The notes: a model not told the origin generated them from the letters alone. Positions 12,079 through 22,995 are shown, numbered from the stretch's first letter. The stretch is 64,000 nucleotides of DNA from Shewanella sp. (GCA_021462625.1 JAJNAU010000001.1:3499-67498); one strand, 5' to 3'. Translations and numbers: made by a program.

Positions 12079-14101
12079 ACTGGGTTTCCTGTGGCGCTTC
12101 GCCTGTGGTTGAAATCCGGGAGTGAGAAGATACGCTAGAATCTGACCTGTATGAGGGGAGGCATTTGCCATGGGCGGCCAGCGGCGGATCTACCCTGACA
12201 CCCAGTGCCCGCAGTGCGGCGATACATTTAAGCAGGCTGCGCGCAGGCGGAGCGCCCTTGCTGTTACAGGCGAGGGGTTTAAGAGGCTGCCAGCTCAGTT
12301 GTTGATTGCTGAGCAAACTGGTGAGCTGACGGTCGGCGCCGACTTCGATAAACAGTCGTGCTCCCTGGCAGATAGCCCGGGTGATTAGCATTGGGAAATT
12401 CAGGGGCTGGCACAGGGTATCGGCAATGCTGTCAGCTATGGTCTGACTCCAGTCCTGACGGCTCAGTTCTTGCCTTAAAGGCTGTGGCTGAGAGGCACTG
12501 AAAAACAGACAATCGCTGCTGAGTGGCTGGTTGCGACTCTTGAGACGATAGAAGGTCCGCATCGCCGGGTGCAGATGCCAGGCTGCCGGTGTGTGCATGG
12601 CGGTCACCAGGGGGGAGGGCAGTGCTGTGCAGCCAAGCTTATCAATAACAGCCTGAGCCTGAACATTGTCACCGGCCAGAATGCAGGAATCGAAGTGATA
12701 CACGGGAACGTACACCCGCCTGGTCTTGCCAAACAGGGTATCGATTTGCTGTTGCACCTCTTCGCACTGTGCTCTGAGCAGATAACAGCCCCAATCCGGC
12801 GTGCGGGTGTCATCATTTGGCTCTGGGCTGGTCTTGGCGTTGATATCTTGTTTTTGCCACAGATCGCGCACCGCAAGCAGCGACCCTGATAACTCCTGAC
12901 TGAACAGGGATGACTCGAGGGTTGGCTGGATAAGAGACTGGGGCTCCTCCCAGACACCCAGAGAGGCCCACATGCTTATCTCCCCCATGGAGTAACCGAG
13001 CGCAATATCCGGATAAAGGCCAAATTCACCGGTGAGAATTTGGCTCAGCAGCCAGGACTGGCCAGCACCGGCTACGGCCTGCTGTGCCAGGGATAAAGGT
13101 ACAGTTGACGGGTTTTGTTCACTGCCAGACTGCAAGGTATCAGATTGCAGCATCTCTGCCAGGGGCAGCTGTTGATGAGCCTCAAACAAGTCAGGGAAAT
13201 GCAGGTGCAAATTCTGATACATCCCGGCCCAGACAGTGCCGACTCCGGGATAGATAAAGGCGACCTCTCCCGGTTTTGCGCCCTGATTTGCCGGGCAGTA
13301 ACAGCTGCCGGCAGGTGTTTGCAGCCAGATGCTTGGTCTGGATTCAATGTGGTGGATAAGGGCATTGAGTTCAGACTCCAGTGTCTGCACATTATCTGCC
13401 ACCACTACGGCGCGGCAGTCTATACCCTGCGGTGGCAACGTGTTGTGGGCATGCCCATCGTTGACTGCTTTGCGCGCTCCTGTGTCCCGGCGTAACTGGG
13501 TGGCCAGCAGGGCAGCGCTGGCAGCACTGTACTCCAGCCAATAATGTGTGATGGGGCGGGGCGGCAGCAGGGCGCTGCCCTGAGCCAGTGTCAGGCATTG
13601 TCTGGCATTGGGGGCGGCTTTGGCGTCCTGCTCCTCCAGATACAGCTGAACTTCCCGTCGGTCGCCAGGCCCGCAGAACCAGTAATTCCCCGAAAAGCTT
13701 GCAGTGCCGTCTATTGGCAGCGGTGTCGGCGGTAAGTCTCTGGCTGCCAGCGAGTGGCACAGTTGCCACAGGGCGGCAAAGCCATGGTTTGGCGATACTC
13801 GATATTCCCGCGCGACCTCTATATTATCGACCGTCTGATACAGGCGTGCGTGGGGATGCAGTCGAACTTTCAGCGCCTCCCGACTGTCCATCAGCCAGAG
13901 ACTTTGGGTGTGATTGCCAGTGTTGGCGCTGGAGATCAGACAGATAATGCCGGCCGGTGTCTCATTGAGCACTTTTCTGGCCTGTTGCAGCGCTGGCAGC
14001 AGGTCATGGGCGGCCAGACTGACGGTCTCAGCCGGCTCACTGTGATCTCCTGCAGGCATACTGAGAAACAGCGCCAACGGCGCCTGAGGGTATTGTGTCA
14101 T
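12062..14101 (-). CDS. pfaB: PUFA synthase acyltransferase PfaB
   Basis: AFIYPGVGT, GYSMGE, AMHTP and FIEVGADRQ AT motifs; lies between pfaA and pfaC. Confidence 0.9.
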   Translation of the reverse strand: MTQYPQAPLALFLSMPAGDHSEPAETVSLAAHDLLPALQQARKVLNETPAGIICLISSANTGNHTQSLWLMDSREALKVRLHPHARLYQTVDNIEVAREYRVSPNHGFAALWQLCHSLAARDLPPTPLPIDGTASFSGNYWFCGPGDRREVQLYLEEQDAKAAPNARQCLTLAQGSALLPPRPITHYWLEYSAASAALLATQLRRDTGARKAVNDGHAHNTLPPQGIDCRAVVVADNVQTLESELNALIHHIESRPSIWLQTPAGSCYCPANQGAKPGEVAFIYPGVGTVWAGMYQNLHLHFPDLFEAHQQLPLAEMLQSDTLQSGSEQNPSTVPLSLAQQAVAGAGQSWLLSQILTGEFGLYPDIALGYSMGEISMWASLGVWEEPQSLIQPTLESSLFSQELSGSLLAVRDLWQKQDINAKTSPEPNDDTRTPDWGCYLLRAQCEEVQQQIDTLFGKTRRVYVPVYHFDSCILAGDNVQAQAVIDKLGCTALPSPLVTAMHTPAAWHLHPAMRTFYRLKSRNQPLSSDCLFFSASQPQPLRQELSRQDWSQTIADSIADTLCQPLNFPMLITRAICQGARLFIEVGADRQLTSLLSNQQLSWQPLKPLACNSKGAPPARSLLKCIAALRALGVRVDPPLAAHGKCLPSYRSDSSVSSHSRISTTGEAPQETQYVISR

Positions 14102-17100
14102 TGCTGCTCCAATGTGGCTGTCGTCTTGACATGGGAAGCGGCACGACTGTTAAGCCGGGTGTGACTCAGGGTCAGTTTTATGCTCTTGAGCAGCACAAGG
14201 GTTCTGCCCTGTTCACTCAACAGCGCGGCATCACACTGGAAGGTATGGCTCATCAGGGTGGCATTGTGAACCCACAGTTGGACAGTGCCCAGTTCATCCA
14301 TGTTGCCATCAAATTCTTTGTGCAGGCTCAGTTTGCCAAAGGCCACCGGCAGGCTGTCCTGCTCACTGAGCTCATGGGCCAGCACCAGTGCGCCCTGCAA
14401 CATGGCATCCAGCGCGCAGACCCGTCGCCAGGTATTTTGAAACAGGCCTGCTCCACTGCCGGTATCGGGTAGATGCACTTGCGCCAGTAACTGGGACTCA
14501 CGGATGGCAAACTGACGAATTAGCTGCAGTCCTTCGCCATGGAACAGCGGACCGCTTTGATAACACAGGCGTCCATCCAGAGGATGTTGTGCCAGCGCCT
14601 GAAGGATCCGTTTAGGGACTCCCTTGGTGACAGGGGCGACCTTATCCCCCAGTCGTGCCCGGTAACCTGGCCTTCCATTTGTGCTCAGCAGTAATTGTCC
14701 ATCCTGCACGGTCAGTGCCAGACTGGCTTTATCCACCTCATCAAACACCAGCCCTTTGAGCAGCTGATAGTCAGTCAGGGTATGCCATTGGACTTCAGGA
14801 TCCGGCTCAAAGGCATCCAGCATCAGACTCAGGGCGCAGGCGGTGGGCAGCACGGGATTACCGAGCACAGCGTGGTCCTGCAAAAAGCCATGGTCATCCA
14901 GTGTCAGCAGCCAGTCATGTTGCGTCGAAGGCTTTTTTGCGCCAGTCTGTTCCTTCCGGGCTTCGCAGGCCGGATCCGCCTGTTCAATGGACTCCGCGGC
15001 GCGGCTGTCGATATCCGGGATCTTTGATTCAGCGGCTGGGGTTTGCGAGCCCTGCATATCTGAGCCCACCAGACATTGCACCACCCCCACATGCAGTACT
15101 TGCGAGGCGAACAGTTCAGCCCCGGCCGCTCTTGGGATCACATACACTCCCCGACTTTCAAACATGGCCTTCAGGGTCGAATTCACCATGCCCCCATCCC
15201 AGGGACCCCAGTTGAAGCTGGTGACTTTCAGCGCTGGGTATTGGGTTTTGAGTTCAATGGCTTTTTTGTTCAGCACCTCATTGGCCATGGCGTAATCGCT
15301 TTGGCCGGCGTTGCCATAGAAGCCTGCCGCTGAGGAGAACAGACTGATAAATTTAAGCGAGTCCATATCCAGTACGGCAAGCAGGTTATTCAGCCCCTCC
15401 ACCTTGGTATCGAACACCTGGCAGAATTGGCTGAGCGTCTTCTGTTCGATGCGCTTGTCCGCCAGCACACCGGCGCCGTGGATAAGTCCGCTGAATGGCC
15501 GCAGCGATACCAGTGGCATCAGCTTTTGGGCGACATCATCGGCGTTGGTGATATCCAACGCCAGATACTCGGCGCTGGCGCCCAGTGCGCCGAAACGCGC
15601 CAATGCCTCTCGAATAGCCAGTGTGTTTTGCACCGGCATCAGCATGGCATCCAGCGCTTTTGGGGTGAGCTTCTCATCGGCTTGCTGCAGATGGGCAAGC
15701 AGCGCGGGTTTAAGTTCAGTCCCAGTTTGACCCAGCGCCCAGTTTGGCAGTGTTTCGATTAGTGGACTGCGACCCAGCAGCACGAAATGACTGCCGGTGT
15801 GGGCCGCCAGTGCCAACGCGCAATCTAGGGTGACACCTTTGGCACCGCCACTCACCAGAATGGTATCGTTGCCACTAAGCTGTAAGCTTGGCTGGCATTT
15901 GCAGCTCTGCAGCGGAGCGGGCATCAAGGTGGTGCGGATGAGATTATCCCGGGTTCCAGCCAGGCAGGTTTCCACCTGCCCGGCAGTATGCAGCAGTTCA
16001 TCCAGTACCAGAGTGGCAAAGAACTGAGGCTCAATGTCAGGGCTGATATCCAGCGCGCGGCAGTGCACCTGTGGCCACTCATGGCTTAGAGTCTTGGTCA
16101 GTCCGTGCAGCGCTGCGGCAAGGGGGGTGACGTCACCGGTGAGATAGCCCATGCCACCATCCTGACGGGTCACAGTGGCAAACAGCGCCGTTGGGGCACT
16201 GTGCAGTGCGGCCGAGTTGTGGGCAGCCAGCAGCAGGGCGGTTTGCAGTGTGCGTTTCTGTTCGGTGTTCGACTGCAGTGGGCAACTCAGCACCAGTATG
16301 CCGCTGAGTGGTGAGATCAGCTTGGCGGTCAGGGTTTCTAGGGCGGCATTCAGCTGAATTTGCGCGCTGTCATGGTCACCAGAGAAGAGATCGGCAGGCA
16401 GAGTGATTTGCGGTATGTTTGCCGCCAGTGTTGAAGGTGTATCCCATGACAGCACCACAGGCTCAAGCCCTCGGGCCTGGCATTGTCTGGCAAGCTCACC
16501 GGCTTGATGACCGTCATCGACAATCAGCAGGCTGCCCGGTGGTTTAAGAGGTGCTCCCAAAGGTGCTGCGCCCACCAGTTCAACGCCTGAATAGGGTGGC
16601 AGCTTGGTTTGAGACACTGAGTCTGGATCCTGCAATCTGGCCGCCGCCAATACTGACGTGGCAGGAGCTGTATGCAAGTCATGACCTTCCGATAAGCGCG
16701 ATGCTTCTGTATTGGCCGAGGCCAATATCACAGTAATTTCACCCAGGGTGCGACACTCGGTCATGGCATCTGGACTCAGGGCTGGCAGCAGCGGCAAGGC
16801 TTCCTGCACGGCGCCGAGAATTTCCACCCGCTTGATGGAGTCGATGCCCAGATCCGCTTCCATATCCATGGACAATTCCAGCATCTGGGCAGGATAGCCG
16901 GTTTTATCGGCGACCACGCCAATCAGCACAGCAATGATATCCGGCGCGCCGGTGTCGTCGGCAGTCAGAGTTTGAGTCTGAGCCTGAACTTGATTCTCAG
17001 CCTGAGCCTGAGTCGATGTTTGGGACTGAGCCAGCAGATCACTGATTTGCTCCAGAGTATGGCATTCAGCCAGCACTTCAGGGCTCAGGGTAGGCAATTG

Positions 17101-20100
17101 TGGCAAAGCGTCCTGTACGGTGCCGAGAATTTCCACCCGCTTAATGGAGTCGATGCCCAGATCCGCCTCCATTTCCATGGACAGCTCCAGCATCTCAGCC
17201 GGGTAGCCAGTTTTATCGGCCACTACGTCAAGCAGCACAGCCTGAGCTGAGGGAACTGAGTGAGCTTCGGCCAGACTCTGAGCAACCTCTGTCGGAGGAT
17301 TGGTTGTCCGAGGACGGATTTTTTCCGGCAGGGCGGTGTGGATCTCATCCTGTATCTGGGCCAGAGTGCGGCACTCGGCCAGCACTTCAGGGCTCAGGGT
17401 AGGCAATTGTGGCAAGGCGTCTTGCACGGCGCCGAGGATCTCCACCCGCTTGATGGAGTCGATGCCCAGATCCGCTTCCATATCCATGGACAGTTCCAGC
17501 ATCTCGGCGGGATAGCCCGTCTTGTCGGCGACAACGGCCAGCAGAGTTGCTGTGATGTCCTGTGTATTGGCGCTCTGTTTTCCTCCGCTGGCTGTAACGT
17601 CCGTGGTGGACTGTGGCTGTTGGCTTAATCGCGTTTGAACGGGTACAGCAGCTGGAGTCCGCACAGCCCCCTGAGTTGACACAGTCCCCTGAATTGACAT
17701 GGCACTCTGATTCTGCATTGCAGCTTGACTCGAGGTCGTTGCAGGCTGGGCAATGGTGCCCGATGAGCCTTGACTGTTTTGTCCGGCACTGAGTTGCGTC
17801 AGCCAGGCCTGATGGATTTTCAGAGTTTCTGACTGATGCTGGTGGAAGAGTTCCATGGCGCGCACTAGGCTGTCTGGTACCGGCAGGCCCTCCCTTGCCA
17901 GTTGCAACTGAGCCTGCATCAGCTCATTAAAGGTGTCATTGTACTGCTGAGGGATGGCCAGAAACGCCTGGTGAACCCGGGCGGCTTCAGACTGGGCAGA
18001 AAAGAGCGCATCCAGCGAGTTGGTGACAGCGCAAGGCGATCTCTCGGGAGCTGATTGCGTACTGATTTGGGTGTGGGGTTTATGCACGATTTTCTCGACC
18101 ACCTTTTCACTGAGTTGGGTTTGTACCAGTGGGGTTATTCTCCCCTGTTCCAGCGATGCCTGCGCCTTTTTCAGCGTCGCCGGACTGACATAATGGGCAC
18201 CGTTTAGCCGGATGTTCATGGGCGAGGGCGAGACCTGATGGCGAGTGTGTTTCACAGCCCAGGTATCCGGATTGGTTATCGCTTGACCCGCCACAGCCAG
18301 CACCACCGCAGCCTGTTTTAACTGCCAGTCACAGCCTCTTCCTTTGCCCGAATCTGCGGGATTGGGGCTCTGAGGAGGTGAGGGATTGACGCTGACGATT
18401 AACAGCTCGTCTTCGGTCTGTGGAGGGAACTTAGCGAAGTATTCATCGGCGATGGACCGCACCAGTTTGCTTTGGGTATTTTGGGGGCCAAATTCCACGA
18501 ACAGGCGGCAGCCTGCTGCCAGCATTCCGCGGATTTGGCTGACATAGTCCACCTGGCTGAGCATGTGGGACGACAGCTGCCGGGCAACATCCCCTTCATA
18601 GGGCAGACCGGTTTGGTTGCTCCACACTTCAGTGGCTGGTTGCGAGAAACGGGTTGCCTCAATAATCTCACCAAATTGGGCCGCTGCCTGGGTCATCATA
18701 GGGGTGTGGAAGGCGCCGGCCACCTTGAGGACAATGGCCTGAATGCCATGTTGCCTGAGGCTGTCTGTGAGTGAGTTCAGGGCGCTGACTTCACCGGCCA
18801 GCACGAGTTGGGTCGGGGAGTTGATATTGGCAATGCTCACCCCGGGGGCGGCCTGAAGCAGTATCTCCAACTGGCGCTTTTGCTCATCGTCTTTGATCCC
18901 AACGGCCGCCATACCGCCCCTGGGCTCCTGCTGCGCCGCCTGCGCCATGGCCTCGCCCCGGGCAAGGGAGAGGGTGCACAGAGCGTCATTATCCACAGCG
19001 CCCGCTGCCCACAGAGCGGTGAGTTCACCATAGCTGTGTCCAGCTGTCATGTCGATATTGAGGCCAGCTTGTTTAAGCAGGGTGAATTGAGCGGCGCTCA
19101 GGGCACCGATGCCGCTCTGAGCATAGCGGGTGTCGGTCAACTGTGCCTGCTGACGGGCGCGGCCTGGCTCATCGAAGGCCTCAAAGGGATACATGATGCG
19201 GGATAAGGGCGTCAGTCCGGCGTCGCTGAAAGCATTGTCATATCGCTGCAGCCAACTGCGCACCTGCGGATAGAGGCAGGCCAGTTCGCGGCCCATGTGC
19301 AGGTACTGATTACCCTGACCGCTGAACAGGGCCGCCAGTTTGCCGCTCAAGGCTCGGGGGCGGAAACTCACGCCACTGGGCAGTTGCCAGGCATGGTCAC
19401 TTTGCTGCCCAAGTTGTTCCCGCGCCTGGGTGAGTGCATCCTTAAGCTCGCCCCCACGGTTTACTGTCAGGCCAATTCTGGGGTGCTCAGGGGGGCAGGG
19501 GGCCAATGCATATTGCTGGCACAAAGCATCAAAGCCCCCGGTATCCTGCGCCAGAGTGTCTATCGCTTCCGTCAGAATTTGATGCAGCGCGGTAGTCGAG
19601 GCGGCGCTGAACAATAATGGCCTGGCACTGCGGCGCAGCCGATAGGGGCTGTCATGTTCGGCCTGATACTCTTCCAGCACAATATGAAAATTGGTACCGC
19701 CAAAACCAAAAGAGGAAATTCCGGCGCGTCTTGGGGTGTGGCCATTTCTCAGCCAGGGCGAGGTCTGGGTGGAAAGGAAAAAGGGCGAGTCTTCCAGTGC
19801 CATTTTGGGATTGGGACGGCGTACGTTAATGGTGGGCGGCAGCACTTTATGGTGCAGCGCCAGTGCCGCCTTGATCACCCCAGCAGTGCCGGCAGTGGAT
19901 TTGGTATGGCCTATCTGGGATTTGACTGAGCCCAGCGCGATATGTTGTTTGCATGGACTGATATCGCCGGACTCATCATGGCTGAACATACTGCTCAGCC
20001 CCTGAAATTCCGCCATATCACCGGCGGCGGTGCCTGTGCCGTGAGCTTCTATCAGACCGACGCTGCAGGGGGCGAAGCCTGCGTCATCATAGGCACGGCT

Positions 20101-21123
20101 CAACGCCTGGGCCTGGCCTTCAGAGCGCGGCGCGTAAATACTCTTGGAGCGGCCATCGGAGGAGGCGCCTATGCCCTTGATGACGGCATAGATGCGGTCA
20201 CCGTCGCGCTCGGCATCCTCCAGCCGTTTCAGCGCCAGCATACCTATGCCTTCACCTATCATCATGCCCTTGGAGTCGGCATCAAAGGGCTTGATGTGGT
20301 CATCGTCGGTAAAGGCGGGTGTTTTGGAGAAACTCATATACATGTAAGGCGAGTTGTCGGTACACACCCCGCCTGTGATCATCATGTCGCTGCGTCCTTC
20401 CACCAGTTCGCTCAGGGCCATACGCATGGCGGCCAGTGATCCGGCGCAGGCGGCATCCACCACACAGTTCATCCCCCCCAGATTAAAGCGGTTGGCGATG
20501 CGACCGGCTATCACATTCCCCAGTGAACCGGGGAACGCATTCTCCTGCCAGGGAATGTATTGATCCTGAAATTTGCGGATCAGCATCTGGCAGTCATCAT
20601 CGCTGATGCCGCTGCTTTTAAAAATTTTTTTCAGCACCGGGTATTGCAGGCGGGCATTCATGGACTGGCTGATCTTCTGCCCACCACCTATGCCCAAGGT
20701 GATGCCGATAGAGCTTCTGTCAAAGCTCCCTTCATCCTCGATACCTGCGTCAATCAGCAAGTCTCTGGCGACCAGCAACGCCAGCAACTGTGCCGTGTCA
20801 GTTTGTTCCAGAATATTGGGAGGTAGCCCGAAGTCCAGCGGATTGAATTCCATCTCAGGCAAGAATCCCCCCCGTTGACAGTAAACCTTGTCCGGGGTAT
20901 TGGGATCGGCATCGAAGTAGTCCCGCGGATCCCAGTGGCTGTCGGGGACCTGGGTAATGGCATCAATTTTATCGACAATCAGATCCCAGAACTCATCCAG
21001 ATACTTAGCTTGGGCGAACAGGCTGGCCATGCCAACAATTGCGATAGGCGTATCTTTCAGTCTTCGTCCGAGACGGACGTCCTGCTCGGTACTGGATGGG
21101 GTGTGGTTATCGGGATGGCTCAT
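14098..21123 (-). CDS. pfaA: PUFA synthase PfaA (KS-MAT-ACPx3-KR-DH)
   Basis: KS DAACAGS/EAHGTGT/IGHTKS; MAT GHSYGE; three LGIDSIKRVEILG ACPs; KR GGAKGVT/YAMANE; C-terminal DH HAVLGNPVLP. Start ATG 21123 with GGAGA RBS. Confidence 0.96.
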   Translation of the reverse strand: MSHPDNHTPSSTEQDVRLGRRLKDTPIAIVGMASLFAQAKYLDEFWDLIVDKIDAITQVPDSHWDPRDYFDADPNTPDKVYCQRGGFLPEMEFNPLDFGLPPNILEQTDTAQLLALLVARDLLIDAGIEDEGSFDRSSIGITLGIGGGQKISQSMNARLQYPVLKKIFKSSGISDDDCQMLIRKFQDQYIPWQENAFPGSLGNVIAGRIANRFNLGGMNCVVDAACAGSLAAMRMALSELVEGRSDMMITGGVCTDNSPYMYMSFSKTPAFTDDDHIKPFDADSKGMMIGEGIGMLALKRLEDAERDGDRIYAVIKGIGASSDGRSKSIYAPRSEGQAQALSRAYDDAGFAPCSVGLIEAHGTGTAAGDMAEFQGLSSMFSHDESGDISPCKQHIALGSVKSQIGHTKSTAGTAGVIKAALALHHKVLPPTINVRRPNPKMALEDSPFFLSTQTSPWLRNGHTPRRAGISSFGFGGTNFHIVLEEYQAEHDSPYRLRRSARPLLFSAASTTALHQILTEAIDTLAQDTGGFDALCQQYALAPCPPEHPRIGLTVNRGGELKDALTQAREQLGQQSDHAWQLPSGVSFRPRALSGKLAALFSGQGNQYLHMGRELACLYPQVRSWLQRYDNAFSDAGLTPLSRIMYPFEAFDEPGRARQQAQLTDTRYAQSGIGALSAAQFTLLKQAGLNIDMTAGHSYGELTALWAAGAVDNDALCTLSLARGEAMAQAAQQEPRGGMAAVGIKDDEQKRQLEILLQAAPGVSIANINSPTQLVLAGEVSALNSLTDSLRQHGIQAIVLKVAGAFHTPMMTQAAAQFGEIIEATRFSQPATEVWSNQTGLPYEGDVARQLSSHMLSQVDYVSQIRGMLAAGCRLFVEFGPQNTQSKLVRSIADEYFAKFPPQTEDELLIVSVNPSPPQSPNPADSGKGRGCDWQLKQAAVVLAVAGQAITNPDTWAVKHTRHQVSPSPMNIRLNGAHYVSPATLKKAQASLEQGRITPLVQTQLSEKVVEKIVHKPHTQISTQSAPERSPCAVTNSLDALFSAQSEAARVHQAFLAIPQQYNDTFNELMQAQLQLAREGLPVPDSLVRAMELFHQHQSETLKIHQAWLTQLSAGQNSQGSSGTIAQPATTSSQAAMQNQSAMSIQGTVSTQGAVRTPAAVPVQTRLSQQPQSTTDVTASGGKQSANTQDITATLLAVVADKTGYPAEMLELSMDMEADLGIDSIKRVEILGAVQDALPQLPTLSPEVLAECRTLAQIQDEIHTALPEKIRPRTTNPPTEVAQSLAEAHSVPSAQAVLLDVVADKTGYPAEMLELSMEMEADLGIDSIKRVEILGTVQDALPQLPTLSPEVLAECHTLEQISDLLAQSQTSTQAQAENQVQAQTQTLTADDTGAPDIIAVLIGVVADKTGYPAQMLELSMDMEADLGIDSIKRVEILGAVQEALPLLPALSPDAMTECRTLGEITVILASANTEASRLSEGHDLHTAPATSVLAAARLQDPDSVSQTKLPPYSGVELVGAAPLGAPLKPPGSLLIVDDGHQAGELARQCQARGLEPVVLSWDTPSTLAANIPQITLPADLFSGDHDSAQIQLNAALETLTAKLISPLSGILVLSCPLQSNTEQKRTLQTALLLAAHNSAALHSAPTALFATVTRQDGGMGYLTGDVTPLAAALHGLTKTLSHEWPQVHCRALDISPDIEPQFFATLVLDELLHTAGQVETCLAGTRDNLIRTTLMPAPLQSCKCQPSLQLSGNDTILVSGGAKGVTLDCALALAAHTGSHFVLLGRSPLIETLPNWALGQTGTELKPALLAHLQQADEKLTPKALDAMLMPVQNTLAIREALARFGALGASAEYLALDITNADDVAQKLMPLVSLRPFSGLIHGAGVLADKRIEQKTLSQFCQVFDTKVEGLNNLLAVLDMDSLKFISLFSSAAGFYGNAGQSDYAMANEVLNKKAIELKTQYPALKVTSFNWGPWDGGMVNSTLKAMFESRGVYVIPRAAGAELFASQVLHVGVVQCLVGSDMQGSQTPAAESKIPDIDSRAAESIEQADPACEARKEQTGAKKPSTQHDWLLTLDDHGFLQDHAVLGNPVLPTACALSLMLDAFEPDPEVQWHTLTDYQLLKGLVFDEVDKASLALTVQDGQLLLSTNGRPGYRARLGDKVAPVTKGVPKRILQALAQHPLDGRLCYQSGPLFHGEGLQLIRQFAIRESQLLAQVHLPDTGSGAGLFQNTWRRVCALDAMLQGALVLAHELSEQDSLPVAFGKLSLHKEFDGNMDELGTVQLWVHNATLMSHTFQCDAALLSEQGRTLVLLKSIKLTLSHTRLNSRAASHVKTTATLEQQ
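16723..17556 (-). repeat. Three tandem ACP-coding repeats inside pfaA
   Basis: The conserved GCCGAG..ATTTCCACCCGC (EILG) block recurs at 16813, 17122 and 17431, an exact 309-bp period. Confidence 0.92.
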
Positions 21124-21928
21124 TTTGAGTCTCCGTGTGGTGGTCGCCATCGGCGCAAAGGGTGTCGGGTGTCGCCTTCATGGCTTTGTTGATGTCGGCA
21201 TCCGGGAAGCGGATAAGAAACTTGCGGTAATTGCGGACCAGCAGACGCCTGAGTTGGTAAGGGCCGTGGGCCAGCACATAAGCGATATAACGGTCAGCTG
21301 CTTGCGCGTCTGAGTCTGAATAAATGTCTACATAAACCCAGTCGAGTTGTGGCTCAAGGCCTATCATGACTGAGCAGGCTGGCCCTTGCTGCACAGGAAT
21401 GTGTATGGCTTCTACCTGCACCACCTGAGACTCCCCCAAGGTGCGAGCCAAGGTGCTGGCATTGAGGGGGTAGCGCTCAGTGCTGTGGCTGCGATAGACA
21501 GGCAGCTGGGCAAAATGCTTTTGCGGTAGAGCGTCACTGGGCTCAATCTCGCCGATACGGGAAACACCGTGGCGTTTGAGGCAACGGGCAAGACCTGAAC
21601 GCGACACCGCCGGGTTGATAAAGGTTCGGGTGACCTCAAGCAGTTTATCCAGTGTCAACTTAAGCTGATATCTCAAACCCACCACCACATACTCCTGGGC
21701 CGGTGTCAGGGTGGTATTGAGATGATGTGGGGTATGAGCCCTGTCCTCAATGTCGCTGCGCCTGCGCCATTTGCGCACCGTGGCTTCACTGATATTGAGG
21801 ATCTGCGATAATTCACGCACGCTCAGAGGTGAGTCCTGAATAAAGCGACGCATCTGAGGCGTAGTGTGACGGGCGCTGTTTTTCCCCTTAACTGGCGTTG
21901 TTTTTGCGAGCTCCGGTGGCAATGCCAT
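21107..21928 (-). CDS. pfaR: PfaR-type regulator of the pfa operon; IS481-transposase-like HTH and degenerate core
   Basis: First gene of the pfa operon, overlapping the pfaA start. HTH LSVRELSQILNISEATVRKWRRR. Start is ATG 21928 (the ORF is open to GTG 22000). Confidence 0.82.
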   Translation of the reverse strand: MALPPELAKTTPVKGKNSARHTTPQMRRFIQDSPLSVRELSQILNISEATVRKWRRRSDIEDRAHTPHHLNTTLTPAQEYVVVGLRYQLKLTLDKLLEVTRTFINPAVSRSGLARCLKRHGVSRIGEIEPSDALPQKHFAQLPVYRSHSTERYPLNASTLARTLGESQVVQVEAIHIPVQQGPACSVMIGLEPQLDWVYVDIYSDSDAQAADRYIAYVLAHGPYQLRRLLVRNYRKFLIRFPDADINKAMKATPDTLCADGDHHTETQNEPSR

Positions 21929-22200
21929 TGCGCTTCCCTGTGGTTGCAGTATCAGGTGGGACTGATGAGCCGGGCACTCTCCTAAGTGCCCGTCTACCAC
22001 TTGATACTCAAGCTATTCCTATTTTGATTGTGCCAAGGTTAGCGAACATATGGCAATGAAACAATCAGTTGGGACTTAAAATTAATAAGATTGTTACATG
22101 TTGGCAGCAAAGGCGTTTTGGGGCGGCATGTGTGGCTGACATCGCGCCTGCTTTCGGTATGTGCGACAATTATTCTGTATTTCAGGTAATTAATTTTTAT

Positions 22201-22995
22201 ATGACGCTTCCTTCTCTGCACCTTTGGCTGATCCCGCTCAATCCACTGATTGCCTGTGTCCGGCCTTTACCCGGGGACAATGAACTGGCGGATTGTCTGA
22301 GTGATGTTGAACGCGTGAGGCTGGCGGGTTTTACCCATGCTGCAGCCAAACGAACGAATCTGTTGTCCCGCGGTATGCTGCGCCATGTGCTCAGTCGTCA
22401 TGGCACGCTTTCACCAGCCGATTGGAAGTTTGTGGCCGGGGAGCAGGGAAAACCGGCGCTTTGTGAATCCCAGCGTCAGGCCCACAGGCTTGCATTTAAT
22501 ATCAGTCACAGTGGCGATTGGCTGGGTATCGGCGTGCTGAGAGGGGCGCAGACCGGGCAGGAGCTGGGAATCGATATTGAGCGCTTTCGCACCGGTGTAT
22601 CCAGCGACAGCGTAATGAACCGCTTTTTCGCCCCCGAAGAAGTGGAGCAACTTAGACAGCTTGATGAGAGTAAAAGGCGTGAAGGTTTTTTTGACCTCTG
22701 GGCACTCAAGGAGTCTTTTATCAAGATGACCGGTCAGGGGCTGGCCCGTCCGCTGGGTAGTTTTGCGTTTGACATCTGCAGGCTGAGCTGTGAGTCAGGA
22801 TATCTGCCGCTGACGTCTGTCAATCATGGCTTGCAAGCTGATGAGCATAGAGTAGCATGGAACTTTGTTACCCTGTCCGGCCCTCAAACCTCGGGTTTTG
22901 GCAGTCGGTTTGCCCGCCTGACAGGTGTATATCGGGTCGCTCTGACCACCTGTGCCTCGCTGAATGCCGTCCCCATTCAAAGTCATTTTTGGTAA
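22201..22995 (+). CDS. pfaE: Sfp-type 4'-phosphopantetheinyl transferase PfaE
   Basis: GEQGKP, FNISHS, GIDIE and WALKESFIK; divergent from pfaR. Confidence 0.9.
   Translation: MTLPSLHLWLIPLNPLIACVRPLPGDNELADCLSDVERVRLAGFTHAAAKRTNLLSRGMLRHVLSRHGTLSPADWKFVAGEQGKPALCESQRQAHRLAFNISHSGDWLGIGVLRGAQTGQELGIDIERFRTGVSSDSVMNRFFAPEEVEQLRQLDESKRREGFFDLWALKESFIKMTGQGLARPLGSFAFDICRLSCESGYLPLTSVNHGLQADEHRVAWNFVTLSGPQTSGFGSRFARLTGVYRVALTTCASLNAVPIQSHFW

What the first reader, a model, noticed from the sequence alone, without database searches (positions are those of the whole stretch)
21107..21928. PfaR appears to be a domesticated, catalytically dead IS481-family transposase serving as the PUFA-operon regulator
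Seen (numbering on the 297-aa ORF): residues 46-146 read TTPQMRRFIQ...SEATVRKWRRR...DRAHTPHHLNTTLTPAQEYVVVGLR...LDKLL...FINPAVSRSGLARCLKRHGV. From memory this tracks the N-terminus of IS481-family transposases almost motif for motif (TTPK.R..IQ, TV.KWR.R, DRSHTPHRLQTTLTPAQE, NP.VSRSGLDRCLRRHGV). The C-terminal part follows the RNase H core in register: VQVEAIHIP vs LHIDVKYLP, and LEPQLDWVYVDIY...AADRY...LRRLLVRNY vs IDRATRWVFI.I....A.RF...IRTILTDNG. The first catalytic Asp is Glu197, the second is Arg256, and the protein ends before the third acidic residue. No IS ends are evident, and the stop overlaps the pfaA start by 17 nt. Inference: a transposase kept its DNA-binding module and was co-opted as a lipid-biosynthesis transcription factor. 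Its operator might then be a relic transposon end. I do not know of this origin having been described.
Basis: partly seen in the sequence, partly recalled or inferred. Interest (0 to 1): 0.85.

Follow-up and report, generated by a model that had tools for sequence, protein, structure and literature searches.

The report
PfaR: tamed IS481 transposase with relic end
The regulator gene in front of the omega-3 fatty-acid (pfa) operon descends from an IS481-type jumping-gene enzyme that lost its cutting residues, and a remnant of that element's left end, the sequence such enzymes bind, is still conserved at the gene's promoter, giving a testable candidate operator.

Summary
PfaR (window 21107-21928, minus strand, 273 aa from the ATG) aligns colinearly with IS481-family transposases of the ISKpn27-like subgroup. 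The match covers the N-terminal double helix-turn-helix module (hhalign E 5.6e-50). It also holds for the C-terminal part tested alone (probability 96%, E 4.7e-9). The two catalytic Asp positions are Glu173 and Arg232 here. They are never Asp in 115 family members, and the protein ends before the catalytic Glu.

The family forms one clade among IS481 transposases. It is single-copy, sits directly upstream of pfaA in 79 of 80 Shewanella/Parashewanella loci and in three distant lineages, and is under strong purifying selection (dN/dS 0.04-0.08).

New here: a conserved motif upstream of pfaR, (T)TTTAAGTCCCAGGTGATTGTAT, matches the terminal inverted repeat of these elements (TGTCAAGTCCCGTGTGATTATAT). 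It has the left end's orientation and roughly its distance from the gene, it lacks the terminal TG, and it overlaps a conserved -35 box. It is probably the PfaR operator, but binding is inferred, not shown.

The "dead transposase" idea was already raised in 2016 from a MuA-based model. The IS481 assignment and the relic end were not found in the searchable literature.

The parts
21107..21928 (-). pfaR coding sequence (273 aa from the ATG at 21928; stop TAA at 21107-21109). The 297-aa GTG ORF reaching 22000 is probably not the real start.
21554..21865 (-). N-terminal DNA-binding module (residues 22-125), made of two three-helix helix-turn-helix units. Homologous to the N-terminus of IS481-family transposases.
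   Evidence: NCBIfam NF033577 E 4.5e-19. hhalign E 5.6e-50, 46% identity. AF2 helices 24-56 and 76-119, pLDDT 80-92. dN/dS 0.04.
21203..21433 (-). Relic of the RNase H-like (DDE) catalytic core (residues 166-242). It corresponds to strands 1-3, helix 1 and the strand-4 region of the transposase core.
   Evidence: hhalign with the C-terminal part alone: probability 96%, E 4.7e-9. AF2 gives three strands followed by two helices. dN/dS 0.08.
21410..21412 (-). Codon of Glu173 (Glu197 in 297-aa numbering), the position of the first catalytic Asp. Across the family it is V, A, E, M, S, L or Y, never D.
21233..21235 (-). Codon of Arg232 (Arg256 in 297-aa numbering), the position of the second catalytic Asp. 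Across the family it is R, K, S, N or H, never D.
21110..21202 (-). Poorly conserved C-terminal tail (residues 243-273). It replaces the rest of the core, including the catalytic Glu, and overlaps the start of pfaA.
   Evidence: dN/dS 0.43
22058..22081 (-). Relic of the IS481-type left terminal inverted repeat, TTTTAAGTCCCAACTGATTGTTTC. Proposed PfaR operator, copy 1.
   Evidence: Conserved in all 81 loci scanned and scores 14.7 bits in the window with a matrix built from transposon ends only. Top hit in 76 of 81 loci against a permuted-matrix mean of 1.6. Also present in three distant pfaR loci.
21944..21967 (-). Second, weaker direct copy of the motif (CATCAGTCCCACCTGATACTGCAA), ending 16 nt upstream of the ATG. 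A comparable second copy about 110-140 nt downstream of copy 1 occurs in roughly half of the Shewanella loci.
   Evidence: (repeat D6)
22036..22064 (-). Predicted sigma-70 promoter: -35 TTGTTT (22064..22059, inside the relic), 17-nt spacer, -10 TAACCT (22041..22036). The genus consensus is TTGTAT, 17 nt, TAATCT.
   Evidence: Motif-anchored alignment of 81 loci. A consensus scan also proposes TTGCCA/CACAAT at 22056..22027. No transcription start site data.
14098..21123 (-). pfaA (KS-AT-ACP... PUFA synthase subunit). Its start overlaps the pfaR stop by 17 nt.
22201..22995 (+). pfaE (phosphopantetheinyl transferase), transcribed divergently from pfaR.

Best explanation
PfaR is the product of a single, old domestication of an IS481-family insertion sequence of the ISKpn27-like subgroup, which landed in front of the PUFA synthase gene pfaA.

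Shown here:
- The gene keeps the transposase's N-terminal double helix-turn-helix DNA-binding module.
- It keeps the first two thirds of the RNase H-like core, but every catalytic DDE residue is replaced or deleted.
- The 3' third of the element, including the right end, is gone.
- The gene is single-copy, fixed upstream of pfaA and under strong purifying selection.
- About 130-150 nt upstream lies a conserved copy of the element's left inverted repeat. It has the original orientation and roughly the original distance to the gene. It lacks the terminal TG needed for cleavage but keeps the internal GTCCC-N3-TGATTG positions.

Inferred:
- PfaR binds this relic with its two helix-turn-helix units, one per half-site, as its transposase ancestors bind their ends.
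- The relic overlaps the -35 box of the conserved promoter, with its centre near -40. A protein bound there would control transcription of pfaR-pfaABCD.
- The title of Wei et al. 2023 calls PfaR a positive regulator, which fits an activator bound over the -35 region of a weak promoter.
- The dead core probably serves dimerisation, or bridging to the second copy of the motif next to the start codon.
For: Homology:
- NF033577 E 4.5e-19.
- A profile of 26 PfaR sequences retrieves bona fide IS481 transposases (245-247 bits on NF033577, with rve and rve_3 domains) at E 1e-45 to 1e-39.
- hhalign over the full length: probability 100%, E 7.8e-55.
- hhalign with the C-terminal part alone: probability 96%, E 4.7e-9, colinear.
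- BLASTP against the ISKpn27 transposase: 33% identity over 249 columns, E 1e-33.

Dead active site: 0 of 115 family members have Asp at either Asp position, and the Glu region is absent.

Domestication criteria:
- One copy in its own genome.
- pfaA directly downstream in 79 of 80 loci; the exception is a 1.5-kb contig that ends there.
- The same arrangement for the distant members P0122, P0123 and P0125.
- One clade, SH-aLRT 97.
- dN/dS 0.04 in the N-terminal module and 0.08 in the relic core.

Relic end:
- 130 terminal repeats from 75 IS481 elements give the consensus TGTCAAGTCCCGTGTGATTATATA.
- The left end lies mostly 91-137 nt before the ORF, up to about 200 nt in some elements.
- The pfaR-upstream consensus TtTTaAGTCCCAGGTGATTGTATC agrees at 18 of 24 positions.
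- It includes ten of the eleven most informative internal positions of the repeat (7-11, 15-19); the exception is position 12, G to A.
- The matrix built from transposon ends puts its top hit there, on the pfaR strand, in 76 of 81 loci. Column-permuted matrices average 1.6 loci with a maximum of 13 over 200 permutations.
- The motif is also present upstream of the three deepest-branching pfaR genes.

Promoter: a -35 (TTGTAT), 17-nt spacer and -10 (TAATCT) are conserved immediately at and after the relic.

Literature: pfaRABCD is treated as one operon (PMC5343134), and PfaR is called a positive transcription regulator in the title of Wei et al. 2023 (seen in a reference list).
Against: - No binding, footprint or transcription start site data were available here. 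The 2023 paper could not be read.
- A preprint reports no change in EPA content in a pfaR deletion of S. piezotolerans WP3, as data not shown.
- Structural comparison is not significant. For the full-length model the best Foldseek E is 7e-3, with low TM-scores, although the top hits are DDE transposases and integrases. The domain-only model has pLDDT 58 and finds nothing.
- AF2 predicts a helix where the transposase has strand 4.
- In the window itself the relic is more diverged (14.7 bits). On its own it would not stand out in a scan of the whole genome. Its significance rests on conservation, position and orientation across loci, which are phylogenetically related and therefore not independent.
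- The relic's conservation could reflect promoter function alone.
Confidence: 0.8

Rival explanations
1. The transposase origin is real, but the conserved upstream motif is kept only as a promoter element or as the site of another factor such as FabR. PfaR would then bind elsewhere or not at all, and the resemblance to the transposon end would have no present function.
For: The relic contains the -35 box of the conserved promoter. Leyn et al. predict FabR control of pfaRABCD in six Shewanella species. A pfaR deletion in strain WP3 showed no EPA phenotype, as data not shown.
Against: GTCCC lies upstream of the -35 box, where sigma-70 makes no contact, yet it is as conserved as the TGATTG part. 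The cognate DNA-binding domain is encoded next to the site and is under dN/dS 0.04. A second motif copy lies outside any promoter position. The motif persists in the deepest PfaR branches although the flanking DNA is not alignable.
Confidence: 0.13
2. Only the N-terminal helix-turn-helix module is shared with IS481 transposases. The C-terminal part would be an unrelated domain whose similarity to the RNase H core is chance.
For: Pfam finds no rve domain. The NCBIfam alignment of the window protein stops at profile position 123. Neither Foldseek search was significant.
Against: The C-terminal part alone gives hhalign probability 96%, E 4.7e-9, in the register expected from the N-terminal alignment. 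For the family members P0122 and P0125, NF033577 aligns through profile positions 217 and 203. BLASTP against ISKpn27 runs colinearly through both parts.
Confidence: 0.04
3. pfaR is a decaying insertion-sequence remnant with no function of its own, carried along next to pfaA.
For: It is truncated and lacks catalytic residues. No EPA phenotype was seen in one deletion mutant.
Against: The ORF is intact in 80 species and in distant lineages. dN/dS is 0.04-0.08. About 60 residues are invariant. Synteny is fixed. A 2023 paper title reports positive regulation.
Confidence: 0.02
4. PfaR still takes part in DNA mobility, for example by recruiting another nuclease to move the pfa island.
For: It keeps an end-binding module and one end-like site. 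Its own genome carries multicopy elements with similar ends.
Against: There is no right-end relic and no second copy of pfaR. Chromosomal synteny is stable. The terminal TG of the relic is lost.
Confidence: 0.01

Closest known systems
IS481-family transposases of the ISKpn27-like subgroup (NCBIfam NF033577; ISKpn27 transposase WP_013213985.1)
   Same: Colinear sequence homology: 33% identity over 249 columns to the ISKpn27 transposase and 46% in the N-terminal module. The same double helix-turn-helix module and the same strand 1-3, helix 1 and strand-4 region of the core. The upstream relic matches their terminal repeat consensus, with the left end's orientation and roughly its spacing.
   Different: No DDE residues. 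Truncated before the catalytic Glu. Scores 69 bits against a cut-off of 224. No right end and no terminal TG. Single-copy, fixed upstream of pfaA and under purifying selection as a host gene.
PfaR as described by Wan et al. 2016 (Colwellia psychrerythraea 34H; PMC4744452)
   Same: The same gene family and the same general conclusion: a transposase-like fold with catalytic residues not conserved, hence a regulator rather than a transposase.
   Different: That statement rests on an unpublished Phyre model built on phage Mu transposase (4FCY, 14% identity). It names neither the IS481 family nor any DNA site. Here the source family and subgroup are identified by sequence statistics, the domestication is shown to be single, and a relic end is found.
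Eukaryotic transposase-derived DNA-binding proteins that still recognise relic transposon ends (for example SETMAR and Hsmar1 ends; FHY3/FAR1 from Mutator-like elements). From general knowledge.
   Same: A transposase DNA-binding domain is reused by the host. In the SETMAR case the cognate inverted repeats serve as genomic binding sites.
   Different: Those are eukaryotic, usually fused to other domains and act at many dispersed sites. PfaR is bacterial and stands alone. Apart from multicopy IS481-like ends, a transposon-end matrix scan singled out no other site in its genome. No scan with the pfaR motif itself was run.
TldR (TnpB-like nuclease-dead repressors) of bacteria. From general knowledge.
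   Same: A bacterial protein encoded by a mobile element that lost catalysis and became a transcription regulator of a neighbouring host gene.
   Different: TldR is RNA-guided and derives from IS200/IS605-type TnpB. PfaR derives from a DDE transposase and would recognise DNA directly through helix-turn-helix units.

Membership tests
IS481 family transposase (NCBIfam NF033577, equivalog) | Whole-protein score at or above the curated cut-off of 224 bits | tested here: not met
   69 bits, E 4.5e-19, covering profile positions 9-123 only. True members score 245-247 bits.
IS481 family transposase (NCBIfam NF033577, equivalog) | Catalytic DDE triad in an RNase H-like core | tested here: not met
   The first Asp is Glu173 and the second is Arg232. 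The region holding the Glu is absent. None of 115 family members has Asp at either position.
IS481 family transposase (NCBIfam NF033577, equivalog) | N-terminal helix-turn-helix DNA-binding module homologous to the family's | tested here: met
   hhalign E 5.6e-50, 46% identity over 118 columns.
IS481 family insertion sequence (the element) | Two terminal inverted repeats starting with TGT that flank the gene, and multiple copies per genome | tested here: not met
   Only a left-end relic without the TG is present. There is no right end and only one copy. Real elements show both ends.
Pfam rve (PF00665) integrase core | Match at Pfam's gathering threshold | tested here: not met
   No rve hit even at E 10. 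Homology to the first two thirds of the core is detectable only by profile-profile comparison.
Pfam rve (PF00665) integrase core | RNase H-like three-dimensional fold | tested here: inconclusive
   The full-length AF2 model shows strand-strand-strand-helix-helix. The top Foldseek hits are DDE enzymes but none is significant. The domain-only model has pLDDT 58 and finds nothing.
PfaR family (regulator gene of the pfa cluster) | Orthology to named PfaR proteins and a position directly upstream of pfaA | tested here: met
   50-91% identity to proteins named PfaR or transcriptional regulator in Shewanella. pfaA lies downstream in 79 of 80 loci and in the window.
PfaR family (regulator gene of the pfa cluster) | Regulates pfa transcription by binding DNA | not testable with these tools
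   Only the title of Wei et al. 2023 ('positive transcription regulator PfaR') was seen. The paper is not held.
Domesticated transposase (general criteria) | Transposase homology, loss of mobility, syntenic orthologues across species, and purifying selection | tested here: met
   homology; immobile, single copy; synteny; one clade; dN/dS 0.04-0.08.

The most novel reading that the evidence does not exclude
A bacterial transcription factor and its operator were domesticated together from one insertion sequence. The IS481 transposase's end-binding module became PfaR. The element's own left inverted repeat, which already carried the -35 box of the transposase promoter, became the PfaR-controlled promoter of the PUFA synthase operon. 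The old transposase autoregulatory loop would thus have been rewired into control of lipid biosynthesis. The dead RNase H core would be retained for pairing the two repeat copies.
Probability: 0.55. Interest if true: 0.75.

Novelty: new variant of a known kind. Interest (0 to 1): 0.62.

Why it matters
PfaR has been described as matching no class of bacterial regulators (bioRxiv 10.1101/2020.01.28.924217). Control of bacterial omega-3 fatty-acid synthesis in Shewanella and Colwellia remains poorly understood, and it also matters for EPA production strains.

Placing PfaR in a defined transposase subgroup gives a concrete, testable model. It names a 20-nt candidate operator with two half-sites, predicts its position relative to the promoter, and predicts which protein module reads it.

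More generally, this would be a clear bacterial case in which a DDE transposase and its cognate transposon end were co-opted together as a regulator-operator pair. That pattern is well known in eukaryotes but, to my knowledge, rarely documented in bacteria.

It also suggests possible cross-talk between PfaR and active IS481-type elements with similar ends in the same genomes.

Tried and rejected
- Pfam and PDB sequence searches with the single protein or the family profile found only generic helix-turn-helix hits, or nothing.
- Foldseek with the full-length AF2 model (pLDDT 69) returned Mos1, IstA and retroviral integrases at the top. Their E-values were 7e-3 or worse and TM-scores below 0.2, so this does not count as support.
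- A domain-only model of residues 150-250 was poor (pLDDT 58), and its Foldseek hits were noise.
- The first attempt to define IS481 ends on a single metagenomic element (L096) found no convincing terminal repeats. A two-copy element (L097/L099) and then 75 metagenomic elements solved this.
- RNA-seq for a transcription start site was uninformative. Runs for the window's organism are metatranscriptomes. For a close relative of S. putrefaciens only assembled contigs of 9-11 kb were available, and they span pfaE to pfaA without ends.
- A search for a right-end relic downstream of pfaR found only weak scattered hits.
- The scan of the whole own genome with the transposon-end matrix showed that the window's own relic (about 14 bits) is not exceptional by score alone. 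The argument therefore rests on cross-species conservation and position.
- The idea that the 297-aa GTG start is real was set aside. The extension is not seen in the aligned homologues, and it contains the second motif copy.
Full report
**What is there.** On the minus strand, an ORF runs from a GTG at 22000 to the stop at 21107-21109 (297 aa).
- The likely start is the ATG at 21928, giving 273 aa.
- The closest orthologue (P0001, Shewanella sp. GXUN23E, 91% identity) has 272 aa and starts at the same MALPPE.
- The gene is followed by pfaA, which has KS, AT and further domains. If pfaA starts at the ATG at 21123, which has GGAG 8 nt upstream, the overlap with pfaR is 17 nt.
- pfaB, pfaC and pfaD follow.
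- pfaE, a phosphopantetheinyl transferase, is transcribed divergently from 22201.

**Homology to IS481 transposases.** Pfam sees only weak generic helix-turn-helix matches and no rve domain. NCBIfam's IS481 model matches residues 54-169 (297-aa numbering) at E 4.5e-19, far below the family cut-off (69 against 224 bits).

I then searched a profile of 26 Shewanella PfaR proteins (A1) against 1.8 billion representative proteins.
- It first recovers a few PfaR-like representatives.
- Next come proteins of 300-445 aa at E 1e-45 to 1e-39, many matched in two stretches.
- The ones I tested are bona fide IS481 transposases: 245-247 bits on NF033577, with rve and rve_3 domains.

Profile-profile comparison of A1 with 22 of these transposases (A2) gives probability 100%, E 7.8e-55, over 210 colinear columns. 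It covers PfaR residues 15-242 (273-aa numbering) against transposase residues 4-218.

That score could come from the N-terminus alone, so I repeated the comparison with the two halves separately.
- The N-terminal part gives E 5.6e-50 at 46% identity.
- Residues 160-273 alone give probability 96%, E 4.7e-9 over 78 columns.
- The C-terminal alignment falls exactly where colinearity predicts: VVQVEAIHIP on FVHVDIKYLP, MIGLEPQLDWVYVDIYSD on FVAIDRATRWVYLEIRKD, and LRRLLVRNYRKFLIRF on IQKILTDNDKAFTDRF.

Two further results agree. For more distant family members, the NCBIfam alignment itself runs on to profile positions 203-217. A plain BLASTP of the window protein against the ISKpn27 transposase gives 33% identity over 249 columns, E 1e-33, through both parts. 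ISKpn27 is the closest named element found, via a tblastn search of plasmid records.

**Dead active site.**
- Across 115 family representatives, the first position is V, A, E, M, S, L or Y and the second is R, K, S, N or H. Neither is ever Asp.
- In the transposases the catalytic Glu lies 48-49 residues after the second Asp.
- PfaR has 26-55 residues there (41 in the window), which are poorly conserved and not homologous.

**Is it domesticated?**
- Copy number: the window's genome has one copy. Its other IS481-like matches are unrelated or broken transposase genes.
- Synteny: in 80 loci from one genome per species (Shewanella, Parashewanella, one record labelled Vibrio and one Pseudomonadales MAG), pfaA starts directly after the gene in 79. 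The exception is a 1.5-kb contig that ends there.
- Distant members: P0122, P0123 and P0125 also lie directly upstream of a PfaA-type synthase.
- Phylogeny: in a maximum-likelihood tree with 55 full-length transposases, the 16 PfaR rows form one branch (SH-aLRT 97) among the IS481 transposases. The rooting is weak, and one row (Tnp_L097) was a wrongly extracted ORF and should be ignored.
- Selection: pairwise dN/dS is 0.04 for the N-terminal module, 0.07 for the linker, 0.08 for the relic core and 0.43 for the tail.

So the protein is a host gene under selection, and its dead core still matters.

**The relic transposon end.** I first counted 10-mers upstream of pfaR in the 81 loci. This revealed a strongly conserved motif, AGTCCCAGGTGATTGTAT(C/T)G, always on the pfaR strand. 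In about half of the loci there is a weaker second direct copy 110-140 nt downstream.

Independently, I defined the ends of real elements.
- A two-copy IS481 element in another genome ends in TGGGTCCCTGATGATTGG... and TGTCAGGTCCCGGACGATTG....
- 130 arms from 75 metagenomic elements give the consensus TGTCAAGTCCCGTGTGATTATATA.
- The left end lies mostly 91-137 nt before the ORF (up to about 200 nt in some elements), the right end overlaps the ORF end, and there is no internal copy.
- ISKpn27 fits this pattern: left end TGTCTGGACTCGTGGGATCATGTA, 1080 bp in total.

The pfaR-upstream consensus TtTTaAGTCCCAGGTGATTGTATC agrees with the majority consensus at 18 of 24 positions. It includes ten of the eleven most informative internal positions, 7-11 and 15-19. 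The exception is position 12 (G to A). The main difference is at position 2, where the G of the terminal TG is lost.

I then scanned both strands of each 8.8-kb locus with a weight matrix made only from the transposon arms.
- Its best hit fell within 400 nt upstream of pfaR, on the pfaR strand, in 76 of 81 loci.
- Two hundred column-permuted matrices averaged 1.6 loci, with a maximum of 13. The reversed matrix gave 1.
- The loci are related by descent, so this shows one conserved ancestral site resembling the end, not 76 independent events.
- At about 20 bits for the consensus, and with correct strand and distance, chance is unlikely.

The three deepest PfaR lineages carry the motif too: GTCCCATGTGATTGT 106 nt before the ATG in L091, ATCCCGGTTGATTGT in L093 and GTATCGGGTGATTGT in L089.

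In the window the relic is TTTTAAGTCCCAACTGATTGTTTC at 22081..22058 and scores 14.7 bits. By score alone this is unremarkable genome-wide. The second copy, CAGTCCCACCTGAT, lies at 21964..21951. No right-end relic was found.

**Promoter context.** When the 81 loci are aligned on the motif, conservation continues as TTGTAT, 17 nt, then TAATCT. This is a plausible sigma-70 promoter whose -35 box is the last part of the relic.
- In the window the equivalents are TTGTTT (22064..22059) and TAACCT (22041..22036).
- A generic scan proposes a neighbouring alternative.
- With this promoter, the GTCCC-N3-TGATTG core is centred near -40.
- No transcription start site data could be obtained.

**Mechanism, with shown and inferred steps separated.**

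Shown:
- The origin from an ISKpn27-like IS481 element.
- Loss of catalysis and truncation.
- A single domestication, with fixation and purifying selection.
- A conserved left-end relic at the promoter.

Inferred:
- PfaR binds the relic, and perhaps the second copy, through its two helix-turn-helix units, as the ancestral transposase bound its ends.
- It thereby controls the pfaR-pfaABCD transcript.
- The literature treats pfaRABCD as an operon, and a 2023 paper title calls PfaR a positive regulator. This fits an activator overlapping a weak -35 box.
- The conserved dead core may mediate dimerisation or bridging of the two sites.

Against a strong role, one preprint mentions no EPA change in a deletion mutant of another species.

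**Structure.** AF2 with the family alignment gives two confident three-helix units (residues 24-56 and 76-119), then three strands and two helices (residues 172-240), with mean pLDDT 69. Foldseek against the PDB puts Mos1, IstA and retroviral integrases on top, but none is significant. A domain-only model was too poor to use. The structural test is therefore inconclusive.

**Comparison with what is known.** PfaR is not an IS481 transposase by any defining functional criterion: score cut-off, DDE triad, two ends or mobility. It is derived from one.

The general idea is not new. Wan et al. [quoted passage not shown] Some JGI records name orthologues 'transposase-like protein'. A 2020 preprint nevertheless states that PfaR matches no class of regulators.

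No paper held in the library combines PfaR with IS481. I found no mention of a relic end. I could not read the 2023 paper, which may contain a mapped binding site.

**Verdict.** The new contributions are the assignment to the ISKpn27-like IS481 subgroup, the evidence for a single domestication under selection, and the conserved left-end relic overlapping the promoter as a candidate operator.

Noticed in passing
own genome, contigs C33 (~168-209), C138 (~45-86), C151 (~50-91), C154 (6433-6518), C71 (8880 downwards): A multicopy element end, TGTCAGGTCCCCGGTGATTGATAGGCTTCACGCGAA..., with an IS481-type terminal repeat sits at or near contig ends. This is typical of a collapsed repeat. The genome therefore carries mobile elements whose ends resemble the proposed PfaR operator, which leaves cross-binding possible.
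   Followed up: partly
own genome, C158:6092-6115 (minus strand): TGTTGGGTCCCTGATGATTGGTTA is identical over these 24 nt to the left end of the two-copy IS481 element found in another genome (L097). Contig C85 holds a broken ISKpn27-like transposase gene with stop codons.
   Followed up: no
window 21948-22008: An inverted repeat, AGTATCAGGTGG / CCACTTGATACT (12 nt, 37 nt apart), encloses a shorter hairpin, AGCCGGGCACT / AGTGCCCGTCT (21968-21995). Both lie in the presumed 5' leader of pfaR, and the left arm overlaps the second motif copy.
   Followed up: no
loci L013-L047 and others, about 10-25 nt upstream of the relic motif: Many Shewanella loci share a further conserved block, (A/T)CTGGTC-N5-8-AG, just upstream of the relic. 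It may be the site of another factor. FabR control of pfaRABCD was predicted by Leyn et al. 2016.
   Followed up: no
L094 (metagenome contig, protein P0129, 252 aa): A short IS481-like protein that does not branch with the PfaR clade has lost the first Asp (HVN) but keeps an NDG at the second Asp position. The contig is too short to show its neighbours. It may be an independent decay or domestication.
   Followed up: partly
L070 (record labelled Vibrio sp. Of7-15) and L044 (Pseudomonadales MAG): Shewanella-type pfaR genes (52% and 57% identity to the window protein) turn up in records with non-Shewanella labels; L070 also has pfaA directly downstream, while the 1.5-kb L044 contig ends before it. 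This points to either horizontal transfer of the cluster or mislabelled or contaminated assemblies.
   Followed up: no
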